Positions 40,857-48,966 of a DNA stretch of 64,000 bases are shown here, in pieces. Source of the DNA: a virus (taxonomy: Duplodnaviria > Heunggongvirae > Uroviricota > Caudoviricetes); the IMG/VR virus record IMGVR_UViG_2974603165_000001, positions 2,589-66,588 of that record. One strand, given 5' to 3'. The notes beneath the pieces are model-generated. The model did no database searches. It saw only the letters and a program-made list of their open reading frames with translations, and was not told the DNA's origin. A program made the translations under genes and the position numbers. Numbering within the stretch: the first letter of the stretch is position 1; each line of letters starts with the position of its first letter.

Positions 40857-41798
40857 TTATCTGGCGAGGGCAGTTGTGTAGGCAGCGGTCTGCCAGTTTC
40901 CATCAATGAGATACTGGAGAGGTCGGCTGTAGTAAGAACCATCATCCGCACCAAAGTCTCCACCGCCCGTAAGAACGTGTCCGTTTTCAAACTCAGCGGT
41001 CGGGCCACCTTGTCGTCTAAACACAGCCGCGCCGAAACGAATACCCATAATCCCTTGTGCTGGGAAGGTGATCGTGATGTTACCGTTCGCATCTGCGTTG
41101 TTGCCATTTACAGAACGGGCTACATGTTTCCCCGCTACAGTCGCACTGTTGTTGTTGACAACAAGGTTTGCAGTGGTTGTAGACCCTGCTACGGTTGCAT
41201 TACCTGTTGACTCAAGAGAGCCTCCACGCACAGTAGCTTGTGTCACAAGGGAACCGTTACCTGTGATAGTCAACCTTCCTGTCTCTGTCGTGCCATCAGC
41301 ATTTACGTTTCGGAAGACAAAGCCCCCGGCACCGCCGCCTTGGTTGTTGACAAAGAATGAAGCACCAGATCCGTTCGTTTCATTCCAACGAAGAATCAAC
41401 CCTTGTGTTGTCAGAGAGGTATTTGCTGATCCTGCGACCTTCAAACCACCAGACAGCGCACCACCCGTCAGTTGCAGGTAGCGGTCATCTGTCTCTGCTT
41501 TGGAGTAAACACCGAGGTTTTGGCGTGAAGCCGGAAGATCCATAAGATCAGACAGGCTTTGATTGCGTTGCAAGTACAGATTGCTCAGACCAGGTAGCTG
41601 TTCTTCCTGCATGTATTTCAGCCAAGAAGACAACATGAACCAGACGTAGTTCCATCCCTGTGCATCAGGTTTCTCGCCCATATCATAACCCTTATCCCAC
41701 AGGTCGCTGATCGGACGAATTTTATTTTTAGTCAAGGCATTAGGGAGGTCATAATCCTGTTCTGCCCACACTTCGATTTCGATATCCGGTTGTGCCAT
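40857..41798 (-). CDS. short tail fibre
   Basis: W.KGY..GEKP.AQ..N baseplate-anchor N-terminus; RSVNG..AD..GNI; RPLQYLIDGNW tip. Confidence 0.8.
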   Translation of the reverse strand: MAQPDIEIEVWAEQDYDLPNALTKNKIRPISDLWDKGYDMGEKPDAQGWNYVWFMLSSWLKYMQEEQLPGLSNLYLQRNQSLSDLMDLPASRQNLGVYSKAETDDRYLQLTGGALSGGLKVAGSANTSLTTQGLILRWNETNGSGASFFVNNQGGGAGGFVFRNVNADGTTETGRLTITGNGSLVTQATVRGGSLESTGNATVAGSTTTANLVVNNNSATVAGKHVARSVNGNNADANGNITITFPAQGIMGIRFGAAVFRRQGGPTAEFENGHVLTGGGDFGADDGSYYSRPLQYLIDGNWQTAAYTTALAR

Positions 41799-41808
41799 AA
41801 TGCCCTCG

Positions 41809-42162
41809 TTATACTGTTGTTAATACCGCGTCGCTGATGCTGATTACCGGAATTGGGCCTGCATCGGTTGTGTAGATCGTACACACCGCTCTGAGACGGG
41901 CGATTTTTGTGATGAGTTTTCGATATTTTGATGGGTTGGAGAGGTCGAGGAAGAACGTGATTGGAGGCGTTCCTTTCGGCTTTGTATACACATCAATAGG
42001 AATTTGTACCTGGACGGTACTGGCAGTCATGACGATTCGACCAGACTTTGCTACGTAATCGACTCCAGCTTTGGCTGTCCCATCCGTAGTCTTGTAATCC
42101 AGTGAACTCTCTTCTGCGAAGTTGTCCCTTGTGAGGGTAAAGATAGCTGTTACCGTAGCCAT
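41809..42162 (-). CDS. stand-alone Calx-beta domain protein
   Basis: DYKTTDGTAKAGVDY.AKSG, TFFLDLSNP; C-terminal ISISDAVLT strand. Confidence 0.75.
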   Translation of the reverse strand: MATVTAIFTLTRDNFAEESSLDYKTTDGTAKAGVDYVAKSGRIVMTASTVQVQIPIDVYTKPKGTPPITFFLDLSNPSKYRKLITKIARLRAVCTIYTTDAGPIPVISISDAVLTTV

Positions 42163-42172
42163 TGGTATCTCC

Positions 42173-42201
42173 AAAAAAGAGGGCGGTTACCCGCCCCTCT
42201 T
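42173..42201 (-). terminator. intrinsic terminator after GH48 gene
   Basis: GC stem (AGAGGG(G)CGG..CCGCCCTCT) + T run on minus strand. Confidence 0.65.
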
Positions 42202-42203
42202 GA

Positions 42204-44624
42204 TTATAGCTCGTCGTTGAAGTAACGGTGGAGAGCAGCAAGGCTGATTGCAAACTCGGACTGCGCCCAGAAACGGTGGTATCTGAACACTGGCGGAGTC
42301 GTGCTCGCCCCTGTCGCATATGCTGCCACTTCTGCCCATTTCGGGTCGTTATGCAAGAAGGTACGAAGCTCATGGAACTTAACACCACTCTTGATCTGCT
42401 CACCGTTAGGCATTGTACCAGTGAAGATCTCTGGAACGTAAACCTCATCAAAGAGGCGTTTGTAGCCTGGCTGAGGAGAGTCAATCGCCAGACCAACGTC
42501 ATCCACGTACAGGTTCCACATACGATCCAGCAGTTCTTTAGCGAACAGCATAGCTGTTTCTGCTGTGTGGTTTGTGCTCTTGATCTTGCTGGTGTACTTG
42601 CCAAGATTCTTTTTCGCTTTCGCGTAAGTGATCAGTAAGTATGCCAGGGATGAAGCAACACCCAGGTCAGTTGCATACTCAACAATAGAGCAATGCAGGT
42701 TCGGGTTAGGAACCGTTGACGCGTTCCAGAAGGATGCTTGGTTACCTGTCCCGTCCCAGTTCAGAGATGGCAGATATTCGTACACACCTTCATGGTTAGG
42801 CGTTGTAGCCGTCTGACCAACAACCTGCGTTGGAGAAACCCAAGACAGTGTACCAGGAAGCTGGAATGAACCGTCTGAGGTCAACGTAGAGTTGTTCAGG
42901 AACCACACCACTAATGGGTCAAGGATGATCTCCAAGTTGGCTTTCAGCGTCACAGCCAGTGGAGTCGTCTTGTCCGAAACCTCAAGGAACAGATCCGCAG
43001 TACGGCCCTGACCCCAAGTCTGGAAACCAACCCAGTCGTTAGACGGTGGATCGTGCCAAACCGGTGCGTAGGTATAAACCATTCCGTAGAACTTGGCGTT
43101 CTGACGACCATCGGTAGGTGTCTCGTAACGTGCGTTCCAGGAGTTAGTCACACCACCCGCTAATGGGCCTTCTGGTGATTGTAGCCAACGAAGCATTTCC
43201 ATCTGACGGTAGACAGAGCCTAACCAAATGTCAGAAGCACTTGGAGAGAGTGAAGTGAATCCACCACCACCAGTAGCCATGAAGTAAGCTGAGTCAATCG
43301 CTTGGTAGCCTTGGTGACACTCGGAAGAACCGATGCGGTAAGACCAAGAACCTGTAGCACCGGAAGCCGGAATCTCACCGCCCCATGCTGCGTACCAGTT
43401 TACCAGATAATGGCAACTTTCGTAACCCTTTCCACCAACTTGATTGTCTCCAATCTTGCGGAAATACTTATCAAACAGGTTGTAACGCATGTAGTCGCCC
43501 ATTTTCTTCGCTTTCGTAGTTGAAGCGGAGATGGTGGTTGACGCGCCCTGTTCGGTTGCAAACTTCTGCGCCCAGAATGACCACTGGATCGCACGGCCTT
43601 CTGCATCGGGAGCGTTAGTGTATGACCACTTCTTGCCCCAGTCGTTAGCTGCCGCTGGATACCACTGTGTACCTTGGGTGAATAATGGGTCATATCCGTA
43701 GATTGAACCACCGTTCGCAAAGTCGTTCCACGCCGGGTGAGTTACCGTCTCGAAAGAAGATTCCTGCATACCGCGTTCGTAGGTGTTGATGAAGACGTTT
43801 TGCTTCGTACCATCGCCGTTACGGAAGTTATACAGACCTTCAACATCCAGAATCCAGTGCATCAGATACATACGCTTGTTTCCATAAGTGGACTCAAGCT
43901 CATCTGCCAATGGATCGGCACCTTTCGCTGCTGTTGGGTCACCAAGTGTTGGGTAAACGCTTGGGGTATCCCCTTCCGGTGTATAGTCCGCTGGTGAAGA
44001 CGGTGTATACACAGCGATAGGCTGGTTAGTCGGAGAAGGTACATAGAACTGATCGATACGGTTCCATGCGTTGTTGTAGCCTGTCCAGTCCGCTGTTCCT
44101 AACTGACCAGTGACATATCCGTTCCATGCTTCCAGACCAACCCAGAAAGAAGCGGTTTCTGATACGGTTTCACCACCGTGGTCAGGCGCTTCGTTAATGA
44201 TGATGCTGTCTACACCCGGAATGTGTCGTGGCAGTGTACGTGCGTTTGCACCTGTCTGCGGCCCGAAGTATTTGTTATCTACGTTGTGGACTTTATCATA
44301 GATCGTTTTGAAACGTTCCAGATAGTTGATCGCCACCGGGGTGTCTGAACCAGGGATGGTTGCAGTACCGGATGAAGTCCCTAAGACCCCGTTAACCGGG
44401 GACGAAAGGACAACGTAGAAGTTGGTCTCTGTTTCTGCCGGAGCATCATCGTTGACCAAGACAATAATGTCTTTGGAGGTCTCACCTACCGCAAACGTTA
44501 CTGTCCCCGATTTAGCTGTGTAGTTATCAGGTGCTACCGCAGATCCGTCTTGAGTAGCATAGTTAACCGTGACCAGCGAATCGCTGGCCTGGTTAAGGGT
44601 TGTCTTGAATGTAGCCTGTCTCAT
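42204..44624 (-). CDS. Calx-beta + glycoside hydrolase family 48 (processive exocellulase)
   Basis: EAPDHG.ETVSE, MHWILDV, INTYERG.QES..ETV.HP, YTNAPDAEGRAIQ, HYL..WY.AWGG, H.GYQ, GG.TNSW, YHRFWAQ. Confidence 0.93.
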   Translation of the reverse strand: MRQATFKTTLNQASDSLVTVNYATQDGSAVAPDNYTAKSGTVTFAVGETSKDIIVLVNDDAPAETETNFYVVLSSPVNGVLGTSSGTATIPGSDTPVAINYLERFKTIYDKVHNVDNKYFGPQTGANARTLPRHIPGVDSIIINEAPDHGGETVSETASFWVGLEAWNGYVTGQLGTADWTGYNNAWNRIDQFYVPSPTNQPIAVYTPSSPADYTPEGDTPSVYPTLGDPTAAKGADPLADELESTYGNKRMYLMHWILDVEGLYNFRNGDGTKQNVFINTYERGMQESSFETVTHPAWNDFANGGSIYGYDPLFTQGTQWYPAAANDWGKKWSYTNAPDAEGRAIQWSFWAQKFATEQGASTTISASTTKAKKMGDYMRYNLFDKYFRKIGDNQVGGKGYESCHYLVNWYAAWGGEIPASGATGSWSYRIGSSECHQGYQAIDSAYFMATGGGGFTSLSPSASDIWLGSVYRQMEMLRWLQSPEGPLAGGVTNSWNARYETPTDGRQNAKFYGMVYTYAPVWHDPPSNDWVGFQTWGQGRTADLFLEVSDKTTPLAVTLKANLEIILDPLVVWFLNNSTLTSDGSFQLPGTLSWVSPTQVVGQTATTPNHEGVYEYLPSLNWDGTGNQASFWNASTVPNPNLHCSIVEYATDLGVASSLAYLLITYAKAKKNLGKYTSKIKSTNHTAETAMLFAKELLDRMWNLYVDDVGLAIDSPQPGYKRLFDEVYVPEIFTGTMPNGEQIKSGVKFHELRTFLHNDPKWAEVAAYATGASTTPPVFRYHRFWAQSEFAISLAALHRYFNDEL

Positions 44625-44635
44625 TGTTACTCCTC

Positions 44636-46825
44636 TCAGTCGGACAATGCCGGGGCGAGTAGATTCAGCTTAACAGTTTGAGGGGTTGTCCAGTTATCCT
44701 GAACCAGACCGCCTGTGTCTCCACTGTTAGGGTTGTAACACCAGTAGCTGTAAGAAATTCCTTTCTTCCCTGCTGCCAGGTCACGAACACCGTCGCCGTT
44801 AAAGTCGCCGTTCCAATAAGTGATCAGATTACTGAGCCATTGCTTCTCGTAAGTCGCATGAGGTTTGGTCAGGTTTCCAGATCCGTCAACACCGAAGTGT
44901 CCACCGAACTCTCCTACCCAAACTGGCGCAATATTCTGTGTGAAGATGTAGCCCCACATTGGTTCCCAAACACCGTACAGGTTAGAAGGCCAGTTCGCCG
45001 GAGGGGTCTGGTTATCATAAGCCAGCCAAGACTGACTTCCAACGCTTTGTCCATATTCGTGAGGGCTGTAAGCCACACGGTTAGGCTGCGTCAGAGTAAC
45101 CGGACGTGATGCAACACCTTGAAGTTGACCGCCCCACCAGTAGCTGACGTTGTTGTACTGACCGACACCTTCAACGAAGATGATCCAATCGGTAGTCACT
45201 GCGTGGATTGCGTTACCTGCTTGTTCAGCATAGCTCGCCCACGTTGACCAATCCAGATCGTGCGGTTCGTTATGAACGTCTGCCCCGATAACGTTGATTG
45301 CTGACTTGTAGCGTGTCGCAAGTTTCGTCCAAGAGGAAATCCACTGACTCAATGTGTAGCTTCCGTCAACCGGAGAGCCATCTGCCCCATCTCCCGCTGT
45401 ACGACGGTGGTGATCAAGGATAACATAAATCTCTTTCGTGTTGCAATAGTCGATGATGAGATCCAAGATCTCCAACGCCGTCTTGCCTACAAACTCAGAG
45501 TTTACTTCCCAATCGACTGCCGCTGTTGGTGGGTAAGGGTTGTTCTGCACCACCTCACCAGATAATGGGATACGGATCGTGTTGAATCCGAATGTCTTAA
45601 TCTGATCGATGATGTCTTTCCAGTAACGAGCACCGAGCCATGTTCCGTGAGGAGTATAGTTCGTACCTTCCATACCAAACCAGTTTACAGATTTGATGCG
45701 GAAATTCTCAGAAGTCTGGGTTGTTACAAACTGGTTTCCAGATGTCACCAGGCGCTGTAGTCCAACAACTGGGGCTGCTTCACCTACACCAGAAAGCGCA
45801 ACAGTCAATGAAGCTGCATGTCCGATTGTAGTGATCGCCAGGTTGCCAGAGACAATACCTACCGATTGTGGATTGAACACGATTGCCACGTCCGCAGTTT
45901 TGCGTGGGGCGATCACTGTTCCCGTTTGAGCGCTTCCAGAGGCAAGACTGTAGCCTGTAGGCAGCGTCAGTGTACCAATGGTCACATTCACATCTGTGTC
46001 GTTACTGATGGTCACAAGTTTACTCGCTGTTGGTGTTCCAACAATCGAAGAACCAAATGCCATAGTTAACGGAGAGATTGTTACACTATCAGCGGATTCT
46101 GTCAATACAGCATCAGAGATAGAGATGATAATGCCAACCGGAGGAATTTCAGAAGCATCGACGGTGATATCCTCGACAGAGACAGTCATGATGTAGCCTG
46201 TGTTCTCTTCATCGGAGGTGTAAACCAGTCGGGAGATCCCGCCTTGAGTGGTCTTTGTTTTATCAGCATTAACAGAGGAGAACCCAAAGGTGTCATCGTC
46301 TCCATTAAAACCGAATGCCCTTCCGTATGACTCAATCAAACGTAAGTGCGTTGGAAGAGGAAGCATGTCCTTGATTTCTTCAAGCAGGTCTTCCAGCTTG
46401 AAACAGGTTGACATTACATGGATGTCAACACGGTAATTCTCACCCTTCCAGGTGGTAAAGTTTTGGTCACCAAAGAGTTGACGGAGAGTCTGGATCACTT
46501 CCGGGCGTGTACCGTGCTTTGATGCACTCGCCAAAAGGATAGTGATCTGAGCACGATAGCTGTCATCGCCCATTCCGTTTCTGTCAACACCAAGTTGTCT
46601 ACCGATCTCATCCAGGTTCATGTACGTGGCGTTTGCCAGTAAACGACCCTCAGACAGCTTGACTAACATCTCATCAATCGCTTTAAGGCGATTCAGATAC
46701 ACACTTAGAAAAGTGGTGAGATTTTCCTTATCACGAAGGAAATCTCCAGGTAGGTAGTCAAGACCGTCTTGGACAAAATCTGGCAGCACATGAATGTGGT
46801 TGACATCCTGTAATGTATCTGCCAT
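44636..46825 (-). CDS. baseplate wedge-type subunit fused to Ig-like domain and GH5 endoglucanase
   Basis: N-term LD.IG..LG..R....D..YR..I (DUF2612-like); C-term VNWFGME..PHG, GFNTIRIP, LDHH, NEPH, YSPHEYG, GEFGG, YWCYNPNSGDTGG. Confidence 0.93.
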   Translation of the reverse strand: MADTLQDVNHIHVLPDFVQDGLDYLPGDFLRDKENLTTFLSVYLNRLKAIDEMLVKLSEGRLLANATYMNLDEIGRQLGVDRNGMGDDSYRAQITILLASASKHGTRPEVIQTLRQLFGDQNFTTWKGENYRVDIHVMSTCFKLEDLLEEIKDMLPLPTHLRLIESYGRAFGFNGDDDTFGFSSVNADKTKTTQGGISRLVYTSDEENTGYIMTVSVEDITVDASEIPPVGIIISISDAVLTESADSVTISPLTMAFGSSIVGTPTASKLVTISNDTDVNVTIGTLTLPTGYSLASGSAQTGTVIAPRKTADVAIVFNPQSVGIVSGNLAITTIGHAASLTVALSGVGEAAPVVGLQRLVTSGNQFVTTQTSENFRIKSVNWFGMEGTNYTPHGTWLGARYWKDIIDQIKTFGFNTIRIPLSGEVVQNNPYPPTAAVDWEVNSEFVGKTALEILDLIIDYCNTKEIYVILDHHRRTAGDGADGSPVDGSYTLSQWISSWTKLATRYKSAINVIGADVHNEPHDLDWSTWASYAEQAGNAIHAVTTDWIIFVEGVGQYNNVSYWWGGQLQGVASRPVTLTQPNRVAYSPHEYGQSVGSQSWLAYDNQTPPANWPSNLYGVWEPMWGYIFTQNIAPVWVGEFGGHFGVDGSGNLTKPHATYEKQWLSNLITYWNGDFNGDGVRDLAAGKKGISYSYWCYNPNSGDTGGLVQDNWTTPQTVKLNLLAPALSD

Positions 46826-46835
46826 GCTATCCCCA

Positions 46836-48335
46836 TTAAGTAATCTGTTGGAACAGGATGTTTGTCGTGTCGAGAGCAAACACTTCACGCATTCCCAATG
46901 TAACGTCCGCAGTGGTGTACGCAGTCGTTGGTTCAGAAGCCTTCTTCACTTGAGCCACAAGCTGTGTGAAGCGCCCTGCTGCCAACGATCCGGCTACAGC
47001 AGCGATCAACTGGATGTTGTACAGAGTATCAGCAATGCTGAGTCCGTCTGTCATCGTCTTAATCGCTGAACGAATTGAATCCTGTTCGGTGGATGAAAGC
47101 GTCTTACCCTGGTATTTGATCAGGATGTTGTAGTTAGTCGCTGCCGCTTTACTGTGGTAAATACGCTCAACACCATCATCTTCTGTGGTGATATCATAGA
47201 ACGTGTTTCCGTAAGTGGCGTTTGACAACGCAATCGTGTTGTAAAGTGCTTTGCTGATCTCCTCGGTCACACCGCCGTAAACAACTGTCTCGAACTTGTA
47301 TTTCGGGACGCCGTATTGGTCACGTTGGTCGGTGTTGTTCGCGAAAATCTTAACCTTCTGGACACCATCCACATTCAGCAGTGCCGAGATAACCGCAGGT
47401 CTTGTGGCTTTGGATGCCTCTGAGGTGATGGAGGATGCACGAAGTTTGTATTCGTTATCCGTCTCAACATCTGTACCAGATGCAAAGGACTCTGAGTTGT
47501 TCAGAGACAGGAAGCCGCTTGGTGTAGGGGAGATCTGTGTAACTGTGTTCTCTTCACGAGACAGTACGCCAGCCTCTACCGCAACAACCTCAAAGGATAA
47601 CGTCCTTGTTCCCACAATAGGTGAGGATCGGAAGTCGATACGACTGTTCAGACCAACAAACTCCTTAGCGGAGTTGTAACCAATGTACAGTGCTCCAGCG
47701 GCGGAGTCAATGTAAATCAGGTCAGAGTTTAAGTCTGTTGTGTTCGTAACGATAAAGTCTTTGATTGAGGACAGGAACGTGTTAAGTTCTGCTGAACCGG
47801 GTGTTTTGTTACGCAGTGTCAGAGACAAGCTCTTCATTGCATTGTCTGCTGAACTCAGGATCTGGAAGGTGTATTTACCCAGAACCAAATCGGAGTTGAG
47901 GATCTGCTGTGCAACAACGGAGCCTGCTACGGTTGCGTTACCAGTCAGTACGAATGTTCCGTTGTCAACGGTGAAGGAATCTGGTGTGTAGATAAGGTTG
48001 TATGGAACAGTGGTGTTCACTGTCATCTCAATCGTACCTGTGCTCTTGGTCTTACCGCGACGATAAATACCACGACGGCCCAGAAGCTCGTCAAGGTAGA
48101 TACCTTCGGCACCCGCCAGAGTCCCAGAGGTGAAGATCGCTGCTCCAAGCAGGATCAGTTGATATTCACGTTCATTCAGGATCGTTGTCAGCTTGTCGAT
48201 CACAGAGTTTGACTGGGTGTTGAAGGTTTCCCCGAAAGCGGCGATCAACATTGTCTTCGTGTCGGAGATCAGTGTATCAAGTGCGGGAACCTTGAAGCCG
48301 TAGTCGTTCAAACCATAGGTGTTTTGATCGGCCAC
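46836..48335 (-). CDS. baseplate J-like wedge protein
   Basis: G..LD....GI.R, G.DVETD.EY..R, AL..VDGV..V..F.N motifs. Confidence 0.9.
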   Translation of the reverse strand: MADQNTYGLNDYGFKVPALDTLISDTKTMLIAAFGETFNTQSNSVIDKLTTILNEREYQLILLGAAIFTSGTLAGAEGIYLDELLGRRGIYRRGKTKSTGTIEMTVNTTVPYNLIYTPDSFTVDNGTFVLTGNATVAGSVVAQQILNSDLVLGKYTFQILSSADNAMKSLSLTLRNKTPGSAELNTFLSSIKDFIVTNTTDLNSDLIYIDSAAGALYIGYNSAKEFVGLNSRIDFRSSPIVGTRTLSFEVVAVEAGVLSREENTVTQISPTPSGFLSLNNSESFASGTDVETDNEYKLRASSITSEASKATRPAVISALLNVDGVQKVKIFANNTDQRDQYGVPKYKFETVVYGGVTEEISKALYNTIALSNATYGNTFYDITTEDDGVERIYHSKAAATNYNILIKYQGKTLSSTEQDSIRSAIKTMTDGLSIADTLYNIQLIAAVAGSLAAGRFTQLVAQVKKASEPTTAYTTADVTLGMREVFALDTTNILFQQIT

Positions 48336-48378
48336 CTTCGCCTCCTTTTCAATTTGTCAAGAGTAATAACATGTTGCT

Positions 48379-48407
48379 ATTTTATCATACAGGGTATTGA
48401 TTTGCAA
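48379..48407 (-). promoter_or_regulatory. extended -10 promoter
   Basis: TTGCAA-17-TAAAAT with TG at -15/-14. Confidence 0.6.
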
Positions 48408-48408
48408 C

Positions 48409-48429
48409 AAAACCCGCCGAAGCGGGTTT
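48409..48429 (-). terminator. intrinsic terminator
   Basis: AAACCCGC-TTCG-GCGGGTTTT. Confidence 0.75.
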
Positions 48430-48432
48430 GTA

Positions 48433-48966
48433 TTAGTTGGTAGCCCAAGTGTTGTACCAAGTGCTGTCGCCAGGACGAGGTAAACGGAAGTTGACGAGGT
48501 AATACAGTTTGTTAGACCAAGATACCCAGCCATCTTCTCCACACAGGGAGGAAGGTGTTGTCGCGTCATCAGGGTTTGGATAGAAGTAAGCGTCTGAACT
48601 TCCCATGAAGGCAATGCGAACAATTTCCTGCTCCACTGTCAACACTTCGAAATACGCCTCATAAGAACGACCAGTCCTGTCCATTGTGGAACTGAAATCA
48701 TTGATAGAGAGCACATCGCTTTCCAGACGGGTAATCTCCTTGATTTTGTTGTCAAGGATCGTCTTCATCACTTTCTGACCTAAGTACGTTCGGTACGGGA
48801 ACCCAATGGTCTCATCGAAGTACCAATCACCTTGCCAGATATTGAAGCGTAGATAAAGTCTTTGACGTAGACTCACTACGTTTGTGTCAATCAACTGCAA
48901 CCCGCTGGAGACATCTAAGTCTCCAGTTACTGGGTCAAGAAGAAGGTCACTAAATAAGGTTGACAT
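48433..48966 (-). CDS. baseplate wedge protein (gp25/gpW-like)
   Basis: DL.LD..TGDL, LRQRL..R.....G.WYFD...G.PY. Confidence 0.8.
   Translation of the reverse strand: MSTLFSDLLLDPVTGDLDVSSGLQLIDTNVVSLRQRLYLRFNIWQGDWYFDETIGFPYRTYLGQKVMKTILDNKIKEITRLESDVLSINDFSSTMDRTGRSYEAYFEVLTVEQEIVRIAFMGSSDAYFYPNPDDATTPSSLCGEDGWVSWSNKLYYLVNFRLPRPGDSTWYNTWATN

What the first reader, a model, noticed from the sequence alone, without database searches (positions are those of the whole stretch)
44636..46825. Essential-type baseplate wedge subunit fused in frame to an intact GH5 endoglucanase
Seen: one uninterrupted ORF. About 200 aa resemble the wedge subunit that follows baseplate J in contractile tails; next is an Ig-like (ASH/choice-of-anchor D-like) spacer; then a full GH5 TIM barrel. 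The acid/base NEP (45263-45271) and nucleophile GEF (44906-44914) are intact, as are the LDHH, YSPHEYG and W.YNPNSGDTGG motifs typical of E1/EngXCA-type GH5_1 enzymes. Inference: fusion to a structural wedge protein would give a fixed, probably six-fold, display. Phage depolymerases are usually trimeric beta-helical spikes, not TIM-barrel hydrolases on the wedge.
Basis: partly seen in the sequence, partly recalled or inferred. Interest (0 to 1): 0.85.

Follow-up and report, generated by a model that had tools for sequence, protein, structure and literature searches.

The report
Baseplate wedge protein carrying a cellulase
In this Erwinia-type contractile-tailed phage, the single-copy baseplate wedge protein continues in frame into an Ig-like spacer and an intact GH5 cellulase, so each virion should carry six cellulases at its baseplate to cut the host's cellulose matrix. 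The enzyme module is already known from podoviruses such as S6; only its anchoring is unusual.

Summary
ORF 44636-46825 (minus strand, 729 aa) has four parts:
- a complete Wedge 1 baseplate subunit (res 1-226; E 1.5e-67 to the solved phiTE Wedge 1)
- a flexible linker (227-244)
- one Ig-like domain (245-350)
- a GH5 (beta/alpha)8 endoglucanase (359-729; TM 0.94 to CelE2, 0.91 to E1), with all eight GH5 signature residues present, including E520 and E639

It is the only Wedge 1 gene in the 147-kb phage genome. All three domains are under purifying selection. Wedge 1 is present once per wedge, so six-fold display is well supported by homology.

- The same 729-aa fusion exists in the published Erwinia phage Hena1 and in one metagenomic phage.
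- The Ig-GH5 module, followed by a Calx-beta-GH48 gene, is the cellulase pair of podovirus S6. S6 needs bacterial cellulose to infect, and its GH5 protein (gp095) degrades carboxymethylcellulose.
- Close relatives with a stand-alone 215-223 aa wedge protein lack the cassette.

What is new is the anchor. A core, essential myovirus wedge subunit takes the place of a podovirus tail adaptor. This fixes where the enzyme sits and how many copies there are.

The scan also noted this locus in other readings of the same genome. Verdict: new variant of a known kind, moderate interest.

The parts
44636..46825 (-). Whole ORF, 729 aa: Wedge 1 - linker - Ig-like - GH5
   Evidence: It is the only match to this protein in the complete 147,321-bp genome.
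46148..46825 (-). Residues 1-226: complete baseplate Wedge 1 subunit (DUF2612 / phrog_4056), including its short C-terminal tail
   Evidence: phiTE Wedge 1 (9mjn), E 1.5e-67 over res 4-208; phi92 gp146, E 1e-17. 65% identity over 1-209 to the stand-alone KpS8 gp047. 87% identity to the stand-alone 223-aa P0005. The tail at 214-226 resembles the C-terminal tails of 223-229-aa stand-alone wedge proteins.
46403..46405 (-). Cys141, the only Cys of the wedge part. It aligns with phiTE Wedge 1 C143, which the phiTE authors propose forms a disulfide with the sheath initiator.
   Evidence: Alignment; paper. The window's sheath initiator has a single Cys at residue 142.
46094..46147 (-). Residues 227-244: flexible linker and start of the acquired module. 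It contains the motif ISISDAVLT (res 233-241, nt 46103-46129).
   Evidence: AF2 pLDDT is below 50 for residues 207-244. The motif recurs at the C-terminus of the small Calx-beta protein, at the C-terminus of the stand-alone wedge P0005, and ahead of the Ig domain in podovirus GH5 proteins.
45776..46093 (-). Residues 245-350: one Ig-like beta-sandwich spacer (choice-of-anchor D / ASH / TMEM131_like_N type)
   Evidence: Pfam TMEM131_like_N E 1.3e-7, above its gathering score. NCBIfam choice_anch_D E 1.8e-8, below its cutoff. AF2 predicts all-beta structure with pLDDT above 90.
44639..45751 (-). Residues 359-729: GH5 (beta/alpha)8 endo-beta-1,4-glucanase domain
   Evidence: Sequence matches: CelE2 8fc0 E 1e-84, E1 1ece E 1e-72, EngXCA 4tuf E 2e-52. 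Foldseek TM-score 0.94 and 0.91 normalised to the target. Pfam Cellulase E 2e-45.
45266..45268 (-). Glu520, catalytic acid/base in the NEP motif (equivalent to E1 Glu162)
   Evidence: Alignment to 1vrx/1ece. Invariant in 40 of 40 homologs.
44909..44911 (-). Glu639, nucleophile in the GEF motif (equivalent to E1 Glu282)
   Evidence: Alignment to 1vrx/1ece. Invariant in 40 of 40 homologs.
46836..48335 (-). Upstream gene: Baseplate_J-like Wedge 2 subunit (499 aa), expected partner of Wedge 1 in the wedge heterotrimer
   Evidence: Pfam Baseplate_J E 7e-8; phrog_6 E 1e-43.
48433..48966 (-). Sheath initiator (gp25-like, 177 aa) with a single Cys142
   Evidence: phrog_120 E 2e-20. The Pfam Sheath_initiator family hits the orthologs in L007, L008 and L011. 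Cys position.
42204..44624 (-). Downstream gene: N-terminal Calx-beta domain plus a GH48 cellulase (806 aa), the second enzyme of the cassette
   Evidence: Pfam Glyco_hydro_48 E 7e-195 and Calx-beta E 9e-15. 63.5% identity over its full length to S6 gp094.
42180..42197 (-). GC-rich hairpin followed by a T-run (terminator-like), directly after the GH48 stop codon
   Evidence: 7 pairs, 6 of them G-C. This is a consensus scan only.
41809..42162 (-). Small Calx-beta-only protein (117 aa from the ATG) that ends in the motif ISISDAVLTTV
   Evidence: TIGR00845 Calx-beta region E 8.5e-7. The AF2 model aligns to Calx-beta domains with Z 11.8 over res 2-101, starting about 15 residues into the reference chains. 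Orthologs exist in Hena1 and L011.
40857..41798 (-). Short tail fibre (313 aa). In phiTE the homologous fibre docks on Wedge 1. The gene is retained here, downstream of the cassette.
   Evidence: phrog_4465 E 5e-66. Its N-terminus is alignable to the KpS8 gp046 fibre. phiTE short-fibre-to-Wedge 1 contact.

Best explanation
The gene encodes the phage's only Wedge 1 baseplate subunit. This is the single-copy member of each of the six wedge heterotrimers (T4 gp7 / P2 gpI class). Its C-terminus is extended by a flexible linker, one Ig-like spacer and a catalytically competent GH5 endo-beta-1,4-glucanase. Assembly of the baseplate should therefore place six monomeric cellulase arms at the baseplate periphery, next to the attachment site of the short tail fibre. 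The arms most likely bind and cleave the bacterial cellulose that the Erwinia-type host secretes. This would let the baseplate and fibres reach the outer membrane, with cellulose acting as the first receptor as in podovirus S6. The arms probably act together with the GH48 enzyme encoded by the next gene. The Ig-GH5 and Calx-beta-GH48 pair is a mobile cassette shared with S6-like podoviruses. In the Henunavirus lineage it was inserted at the 3' end of the wedge gene, ahead of the tail-fibre gene. Shown here: domain identities, intact catalytic residues, sole-copy status, conservation, and the cassette insertion. Inferred: virion incorporation as a full-length protein, six copies per virion, cellulose as substrate, and a role in adsorption.
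For: Wedge identity:
- Res 4-208 match phiTE Wedge 1 (9mjn), E 1.5e-67. phi92 gp146 matches at E 1e-17.
- phrog_4056 is matched over its full length, E 7e-87.
- The gene lies directly after the Baseplate_J gene.
- phiTE has one Wedge 1 per protomer and six protomers, and its short tail fibre binds Wedge 1 (PMC11972413).
- Cys141 aligns with phiTE C143, and the sheath initiator has its only Cys at residue 142.
- This is the only Wedge 1 homolog in the complete 147,321-bp genome.

GH5:
- E 1e-84 to CelE2, E 1e-72 to E1, E 2e-52 to EngXCA.
- AF2 pLDDT is above 90, and TM-scores normalised to the target are 0.94 and 0.91.
- R418, H473, N519, E520, H589, Y591, E639 and W695 correspond to E1 R62, H116, N161, E162, H238, Y240, E282 and W319. 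All are invariant in 40 homologs.

Selection: dN/dS against Hena1 is 0.036 for the wedge, 0.077 for the Ig domain and 0.080 for GH5.

Cassette:
- The same gene order, Ig-GH5 then Calx-beta-GH48, occurs in S6 (gp095, gp094) and phiEaP8.
- S6 gp095 degrades carboxymethylcellulose, and S6 infection requires bacterial cellulose (PMC9544554; PMC13101476).
- The GH5 tree puts the three fused proteins in one clade (SH-aLRT 99), sister to S6 gp095 (97).
- Relatives with 87% and 80% identical stand-alone wedge proteins have wedge followed directly by tail fibre, without the cassette.

Hosts of all cultured phages carrying this GH5 are Erwinia, Klebsiella, Serratia and P. fluorescens SBW25.
Against: - There is no direct evidence that the 79-kDa product is incorporated uncleaved, and no proteomics or cryo-EM exists for this lineage.
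- The host of this particular phage is not known from the window. Cellulose dependence is extrapolated from S6, whose GH5 domain is only about 65% identical.
- The wedge part of the AF2 model has low confidence (pLDDT 40-90). This is expected for a subunit of a heterotrimer, but it gives no independent structural confirmation.
- The window protein itself did not reach E 0.01 against Pfam DUF2612, although its homologs do.
- Gly596 replaces the aromatic residue at the position of E1 Tyr245, so fine substrate specificity may differ from E1.
Confidence: 0.8

Rival explanations
1. The fusion is made as a precursor. The Ig-GH5 part is then cut off at the disordered linker, or is also made separately from an internal start. 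The enzyme would then act as a soluble cellulase released at lysis, and the virion would carry only a plain wedge protein.
For: Residues 207-244 are predicted to be disordered (pLDDT below 50), so they are protease-accessible. Met213 is conserved in all three fused proteins. GH5 enzymes are usually monomeric and soluble (my own knowledge).
Against: Met213 is also conserved in the stand-alone wedge protein P0005, ten residues before its stop codon. Its conservation is therefore a wedge-tail feature and not a start codon. Only a 3-nt AGG/GGA lies upstream of it. No slippery heptamer is visible in the junction sequence printed. In every other lineage the same module is likewise fused to a lineage-specific N-terminal virion anchor, such as the Gp77 domain or the N4-like N-terminus. 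That pattern argues for virion attachment as the selected state.
Confidence: 0.08
2. The enzyme is virion-borne, but its natural substrate is not host cellulose. It could be another beta-glucan-containing surface polymer, or plant cell-wall glucan that helps the phage persist on plant tissue.
For: Substrate specificity was not assayed. Gly596 at the E1 Tyr245 position suggests a wider +2 subsite. The hosts are plant-associated. My understanding is that some GH5_1 relatives (EngXCA) also act on other beta-glucans; I did not check this.
Against: The nearest characterised relatives are all endo-beta-1,4-glucanases. The S6 ortholog degrades CMC, and S6 fails on cellulose-deficient hosts. The partner enzyme is a GH48, a family specialised on cellulose. 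Among cultured phages the module occurs only in those whose hosts are Erwinia, Klebsiella, Serratia or P. fluorescens SBW25; that these hosts make cellulose is my own knowledge.
Confidence: 0.08
3. The GH5 arm works mainly as a cellulose-binding receptor module (an adhesin), and catalysis is dispensable.
For: The S6 commentary raises the possibility that the hydrolases also serve as receptor-binding proteins. Congo red, which binds cellulose, blocks S6 infection.
Against: All catalytic and signature residues are invariant in 40 homologs, and dN/dS is 0.08. Binding alone would not require this. This reading overlaps with the best explanation, because binding and cleavage are not exclusive.
Confidence: 0.04

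Closest known systems
Erwinia phage Hena1 gp204 (YP_009854371; Vequintavirinae, Henunavirus)
   Same: An ortholog: 729 aa, 85.5% identity, and the same Wedge 1-Ig-GH5 fusion. The neighbours are also the same: Baseplate_J upstream, then Calx-beta-GH48, a 117-aa Calx-beta protein and the tail fibre downstream.
   Different: The genome is only about 79% identical at the DNA level. In RefSeq the gene is called just 'baseplate protein' and in UniRef 'Endoglucanase'. I found no paper that discusses the fusion. The original Hena1 paper is not held in the library.
Erwinia podovirus S6 gp095 and gp094 (Schitoviridae, Waedenswilvirus)
   Same: The same Ig-like plus GH5 module (59% identity over res 326-723), followed by the same Calx-beta-GH48 gene (63.5% identity over its full length), with a similar ~10-nt spacing. 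It is the sister group in the GH5 tree. gp095 degrades CMC, and S6 infection needs bacterial cellulose.
   Different: S6 is an N4-like podovirus. gp095 has its own N-terminus and extra Ig-like domains. Where it sits on the particle is stated to be unknown. Here the anchor is a defined, essential, single-copy baseplate wedge subunit of a contractile tail.
phiTE Wedge 1 (PDB 9mjn, 9cuy), phi92 gp146 (PDB 21vq) and stand-alone Vequintavirinae wedge proteins (KpS8 gp047)
   Same: Residues 1-209 are homologous along the whole 209-214-aa protein (E 1.5e-67; 65% identity to KpS8). The gene has the same position after Baseplate_J, and the Cys is conserved.
   Different: Those proteins end after about 209-229 aa. 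This one continues for another 500 aa into an enzyme.
Acidothermus cellulolyticus E1, metagenomic CelE2 and Xanthomonas EngXCA (GH5 endo-beta-1,4-glucanases). That these belong to subfamily GH5_1 is from my own knowledge, not checked here.
   Same: The same fold, catalytic pair and eight signature residues.
   Different: Those are secreted bacterial enzymes, often with carbohydrate-binding modules. Here there is no CBM. The enzyme has an Ig-like spacer and a virion anchor instead. Gly replaces E1 Tyr245.
C-terminally extended Wedge 1 / DUF2612 proteins (440-980 aa) and, from my own knowledge, T4 gp7
   Same: An N-terminal Wedge 1 domain with additional C-terminal domains is recurrent. About 18 of the best 150 remote homologs are at least 440 aa.
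   Different: None of the ten scanned had a recognisable enzyme domain; there was only one weak CBM_4_9 hit. A glycoside hydrolase on Wedge 1 was found only in the three Henunavirus-like genomes.

Membership tests
Glycoside hydrolase family 5 (E1/CelE2/EngXCA type endo-beta-1,4-glucanase) | (beta/alpha)8 barrel fold | tested here: met
   AF2 pLDDT above 90 for res 359-729. Foldseek TM-score 0.94 to 8fc0 and 0.91 to 1ece, normalised to the target.
Glycoside hydrolase family 5 (E1/CelE2/EngXCA type endo-beta-1,4-glucanase) | Two catalytic glutamates (acid/base in NEP, nucleophile in GEF) plus the conserved Arg, His, Asn, His, Tyr and Trp | tested here: met
   R418, H473, N519, E520, H589, Y591, E639 and W695 align to E1 R62, H116, N161, E162, H238, Y240, E282 and W319. 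All are invariant in 40 homologs.
Glycoside hydrolase family 5 (E1/CelE2/EngXCA type endo-beta-1,4-glucanase) | Hydrolysis of beta-1,4-glucan | not testable with these tools
   Indirect only: the S6 ortholog degrades CMC (PMC9544554).
Baseplate Wedge 1 (DUF2612 / phrog_4056; T4 gp7 - P2 gpI class) | Sequence homology over the whole length of a structurally defined Wedge 1 | tested here: met
   9mjn E 1.5e-67 (res 4-208 against chain residues 6-209 of 214); phi92 gp146 E 1e-17. phrog_4056 positions 1-216 of 219, E 7e-87. The window protein had no Pfam DUF2612 hit at E 0.01 or better, but its homologs carry PF11041.
Baseplate Wedge 1 (DUF2612 / phrog_4056; T4 gp7 - P2 gpI class) | Encoded directly after the Baseplate_J (Wedge 2) gene in the baseplate operon, and the only such gene in the genome | tested here: met
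   Gene order. A single match in the complete genome.
Baseplate Wedge 1 (DUF2612 / phrog_4056; T4 gp7 - P2 gpI class) | One copy per wedge heterotrimer in the assembled baseplate | not testable with these tools
   Inferred from phiTE, which has one Wedge 1 and two Wedge 2 per protomer, times six.
Virion-associated phage cellulase cassette (S6 gp095/gp094 type) | Architecture: lineage-specific N-terminal virion anchor, then Ig-like domain(s), then GH5 | tested here: met
   Module homology starts at res 228-243 against Pavtok, Parlo and phiEaP8, and at 326 (with a weaker match from 248) against S6. Each of those has a different N-terminus.
Virion-associated phage cellulase cassette (S6 gp095/gp094 type) | One of the next two genes encodes a protein with an N-terminal Calx-beta domain (GH48 in S6) | tested here: met
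   True for the window, Hena1, L011, S6, phiEaP8, Pavtok, Parlo, L010, L012 and L014, which is 10 of 10 loci inspected. It is the very next gene in nine; in L014 an unassigned 805-aa gene lies between.
Virion-associated phage cellulase cassette (S6 gp095/gp094 type) | Infection depends on host cellulose | not testable with these tools
   Shown for S6 only.
Choice-of-anchor D / ASH-type Ig-like domain | Profile match above the curated threshold | tested here: inconclusive
   NCBIfam choice_anch_D scores 34.8 bits against a cutoff of 45. Pfam ASH scores 19.3 against 27, but the related TMEM131_like_N scores 32.2 against 28.8. The beta-sandwich fold is predicted with pLDDT above 90.

The most novel reading that the evidence does not exclude
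The wedge-GH5 protein is also the docking hub of a small multi-enzyme cellulase complex at each of the six baseplate corners. The Calx-beta domains of the GH48 enzyme and of the 117-aa protein lack the canonical first strand. The conserved peptide ISISDAV(L/I)T could complete such a domain by beta-strand donation. It occurs in the linker of the fusion (res 233-241) and again at the C-terminus of the 117-aa protein. This would chain GH5, the adaptor and GH48 onto Wedge 1: a phage-borne endo-plus-exo 'mini-cellulosome'. The docking code would be portable between myoviruses and podoviruses.
Probability: 0.25. Interest if true: 0.75.

Novelty: new variant of a known kind. Interest (0 to 1): 0.5.

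Why it matters
Phage cellulases that target bacterial cellulose were recognised only recently, with S6 in 2022. Their place on the particle is explicitly unknown (PMC9544554).

Here the same enzyme module is covalently part of a structurally defined baseplate subunit. That gives a position, a copy number (six) and a monomeric display mode by homology. It also predicts that Hena1-like myoviruses, which are candidates for fire-blight biocontrol, depend on cellulose.

It shows that an essential core wedge protein can serve as the anchor for a swapped-in receptor-degrading module, and not only fibres and spikes. This matters for engineering the host range of contractile-tailed phages and for annotating Wedge 1 genes. 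At least one stand-alone wedge protein has already been mislabelled 'glucanase', probably by annotation transfer.

Tried and rejected
1. Stop-codon loss. The comparison with KpS8 suggested that 9 nt including the stop had been deleted and that Met213 was the old start of a separate Ig-GH5 gene. I rejected this. The closest stand-alone wedge protein (P0005, 223 aa) naturally contains GYIMT and continues to residue 223. Other 223-229-aa wedge proteins have tails like res 214-226. The junction therefore lies at about residue 226-232.

2. Internal initiation or frameshifting at the junction. Only a 3-nt AGG lies upstream of Met213, and no slippery heptamer is visible in the junction sequence. The sigma-70-like hit at 46105-46077, inside the motif codons, is within chance expectation (19 found against 13.5 +/- 3.5).

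3. Recent DNA duplication of the ISISDAVLT repeat. I rejected this because the two window copies use different serine codon families, TCT and AGC. Conservation is at the peptide level.

4. Complex prediction for GH5 res 224-729 with GH48 res 1-105. Docking therefore remains untested, and I did not attempt it by any other route.

5. AF2 of the 117-aa protein. The C-terminal motif is predicted as strands, but only at pLDDT 52-63, which is too weak to count as support.

6. Literature. I found no paper on the Hena1 fusion. The Hena1 and S6 primary papers are not held.

7. The phi92 paper uses gp145 and gp146 inconsistently for the one-copy and two-copy subunits. I relied on phiTE for the stoichiometry.

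8. The search for related loci in viral contigs with the single protein returned only Hena1 and one 55-kb contig.
Full report
**Observation**

The minus strand carries one open frame from ATG 46825 to its stop codon at 44636-44638 (729 aa). A GGGG ribosome-binding run lies 5 nt upstream of the ATG. The preceding Baseplate_J gene stops 10 nt upstream.

- PHROG 4056 'baseplate protein' over res 1-217, matched along its full length (E 7e-87).
- Ig-like families (TMEM131_like_N, Cep192_D4, ASH, choice-of-anchor D) over about 234-348.
- Pfam Cellulase/GH5 over 378-701 (E 2e-45).

**The N-terminal part is a real and complete wedge subunit**

Against solved structures, res 4-208 match 'Wedge 1 protein' of Pectobacterium myophage phiTE (9mjn; E 1.5e-67; chain residues 6-209 of 214). 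Res 8-175 match phi92 gp146 (E 1e-17).

The phiTE paper (PMC11972413) describes six wedge protomers. Each holds one Wedge 1, two Wedge 2 and an Ig-like spacer. The short tail fibre docks on Wedge 1. The authors propose a disulfide between Wedge 1 C143 and sheath-initiator C143.

The window protein has its only wedge-part cysteine (C141) at the aligned position. The window's sheath initiator has a single cysteine at residue 142.

The stand-alone Wedge 1 of Klebsiella phage KpS8 (209 aa) is 65% identical over res 1-209. The complete 147,321-bp genome has no second Wedge 1 gene, so the fusion protein must supply this subunit.

**The C-terminal part is an intact GH5 endoglucanase**

Res 359-727 match CelE2 (E 1e-84), Acidothermus E1 (E 1e-72) and Xanthomonas EngXCA (E 2e-52). 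An AlphaFold2 model built on a 59-sequence alignment has pLDDT above 90 for the Ig-like domain (245-350) and the barrel (359-729). Foldseek gives TM-scores of 0.94 to CelE2 and 0.91 to E1, normalised to the target.

Counting along the printed E1 alignment, the GH5 signature maps as follows:
- R418 to E1 R62
- H473 to H116
- N519 and E520 to N161 and E162
- H589 and Y591 to H238 and Y240
- E639 to E282
- W695 to W319

All eight are invariant in 40 homologs. Residues 207-244 have pLDDT below 50, which fits a flexible tether. dN/dS against Hena1 is 0.036 (wedge), 0.077 (Ig) and 0.080 (GH5), so every part is under purifying selection.

**Distribution and origin**

The closest cultured relative is Erwinia phage Hena1 (Vequintavirinae, Henunavirus). 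Its gp204 is the same 729-aa fusion (85.5% identity) with the same neighbours.

A search of 5.8 billion protein clusters for proteins of 400-1276 aa carrying this wedge domain found only three: the window, Hena1 and a 144,975-bp ENA phage contig with the same gene order. That search relies on shared short words, so more distant fusions could be missed.

In contrast, 56 stand-alone forms of 204-260 aa were found. Two of them are 87% and 80% identical. Their contigs run Baseplate_J, wedge, tail fibre, fibre chaperone, with no cellulases. The Henunavirus arrangement is therefore an insertion of about 4.4 kb between the 3' end of the wedge gene and the fibre gene. The insert comprises Ig-GH5, Calx-beta-GH48 and a small Calx-beta gene.

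The wedge part is retained to its very end. Res 214-226 resemble the C-terminal tails of 223-229-aa stand-alone wedge proteins. Homology to podovirus GH5 proteins begins at res 228-243.

Among 50,697 phage records, only 31 carry this GH5. All except the two copies of the Hena1 genome (GenBank and RefSeq) and three short unannotated human-faecal phage contigs (10-27 kb, 26-30% identity) are 60-76-kb podoviruses of Erwinia, Klebsiella, Serratia or P. fluorescens SBW25.

In a maximum-likelihood tree of the GH5 domain, the three fused proteins form one clade (SH-aLRT 99). That clade is sister to S6 gp095 plus an S6-like metagenomic protein (97). The tree is unrooted, so the direction of transfer is not shown. 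A single origin of the fusion is supported.

**What is already known**

Podovirus S6 encodes gp095 (Ig-like domains plus GH5) followed directly by gp094 (Calx-beta plus GH48). According to the commentary PMC9544554, gp095 degrades carboxymethylcellulose. S6 cannot infect cellulose-deficient E. amylovora, and Congo red blocks infection.

The commentary also says that the location of the enzymes on the particle 'remains to be shown', and it lists homologs only in podoviruses. PMC13101476 confirms that S6 and M7 depend on cellulose. I found no paper discussing the Hena1 fusion. The two primary papers are not held.

**Mechanism proposed**

The protein enters each wedge heterotrimer through its Wedge 1 part. 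The tether and Ig-like spacer then hold one monomeric GH5 at the baseplate rim, six per virion, beside the short fibre. The GH5 binds and cleaves host cellulose so that the fibres and baseplate can reach the outer membrane.

A monomeric TIM-barrel enzyme fits a single-copy anchor, whereas trimeric spikes need trimeric adaptors. That last point is inference. Virion incorporation, copy number and substrate are also inferred from homology.

**Beyond the finding**

In all ten loci inspected, spanning at least four phage lineages, one of the next two genes after the Ig-GH5 gene begins with a Calx-beta domain, whatever its C-terminal part. In nine loci it is the very next gene; in L014 an unassigned 805-aa gene lies between.

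The model of the window's small Calx-beta protein aligns to integrin beta4 and NCX Calx-beta domains (Z 11.8) from its residue 2. The alignment starts about 15 residues into the reference chains, which suggests that the canonical first strand is missing.

The peptide ISISDAV(L/I)T occurs in several places:
- in the fusion's linker
- at the C-terminus of the small Calx-beta protein
- at the C-terminus of the closest stand-alone wedge protein
- in similar form, ahead of the Ig domain in phiEaP8, S6 and many metagenomic podovirus GH5 proteins

The two window copies use different serine codon families, so the peptide itself is conserved. It may be a docking strand or simply a module-boundary element. 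This could not be tested (see Tried and rejected). An earlier first-reader note of this scan (e1-5431002) proposed donor-strand docking for the same stretch. I treat it as a lead only.

**Verdict**

The enzyme module and its biology are known from S6, and the fusion itself is already in a public genome. What is new is recognising that an essential Wedge 1 subunit is the anchor, which fixes position and stoichiometry. This is a new variant of a known kind, with interest about 0.5.

Noticed in passing
window 42204-44624 (-): Full-length GH48 cellulase with an N-terminal Calx-beta domain (Pfam GH48 E 7e-195). It is 63.5% identical to S6 gp094. With the GH5 it would form an endo-plus-processive cellulase pair in a myovirus tail operon.
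   Followed up: partly
window 41809-42162 (-): A 117-aa protein that is essentially one Calx-beta domain lacking the canonical first strand (Z 11.8 to integrin beta4 Calx-beta, aligned from model residue 2 to chain residue 1004). It ends in ISISDAVLTTV, the same peptide as res 233-241 of the wedge-GH5 protein. The L011 ortholog carries the motif twice in tandem.
   Followed up: partly
window 42180-42197 (-): GC-rich hairpin followed by a T-run, directly after the GH48 stop and before the small Calx-beta gene. It may be a terminator brought in with the cassette, or an attenuator between the enzymes and the fibre genes.
   Followed up: no
protein P0011: A stand-alone 210-aa Wedge 1 protein of Cronobacter phage EspYZU08 is named 'glucanase' in nr. 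This is probably annotation transfer from the Hena1-type fusion, since the protein has no GH5 part.
   Followed up: no
window 48336-48432; loci L007 3861-5915, L008 1381-3645, L011 3679-6309: Relatives carry a 684-876-aa tailspike-like gene (Peptidase_S74, Tail_spike_N) between the sheath initiator and Baseplate_J. The window and Hena1 have only a ~97-nt gap there, containing a hairpin (48410-48429). This is a second variable receptor-binding slot in this baseplate operon.
   Followed up: no
window 45038-45040 (-), residue Gly596: The position of E1 Tyr245 is Gly here and in 38 of 40 phage and bacterial homologs. In E1 it is a product-side subsite residue, mutated to Gly in PDB 1vrx. This suggests a naturally more open product side of the cleft.
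   Followed up: partly
proteins P0187, P0202, P0222, P0227, P0235, P0237, P0250, P0251, P0260, P0267: Remote Wedge 1 (DUF2612) homologs of 440-980 aa have large C-terminal extensions with no Pfam assignment, apart from one weak CBM_4_9 hit. These may be further, uncharacterised wedge-anchored receptor-binding modules.
   Followed up: partly
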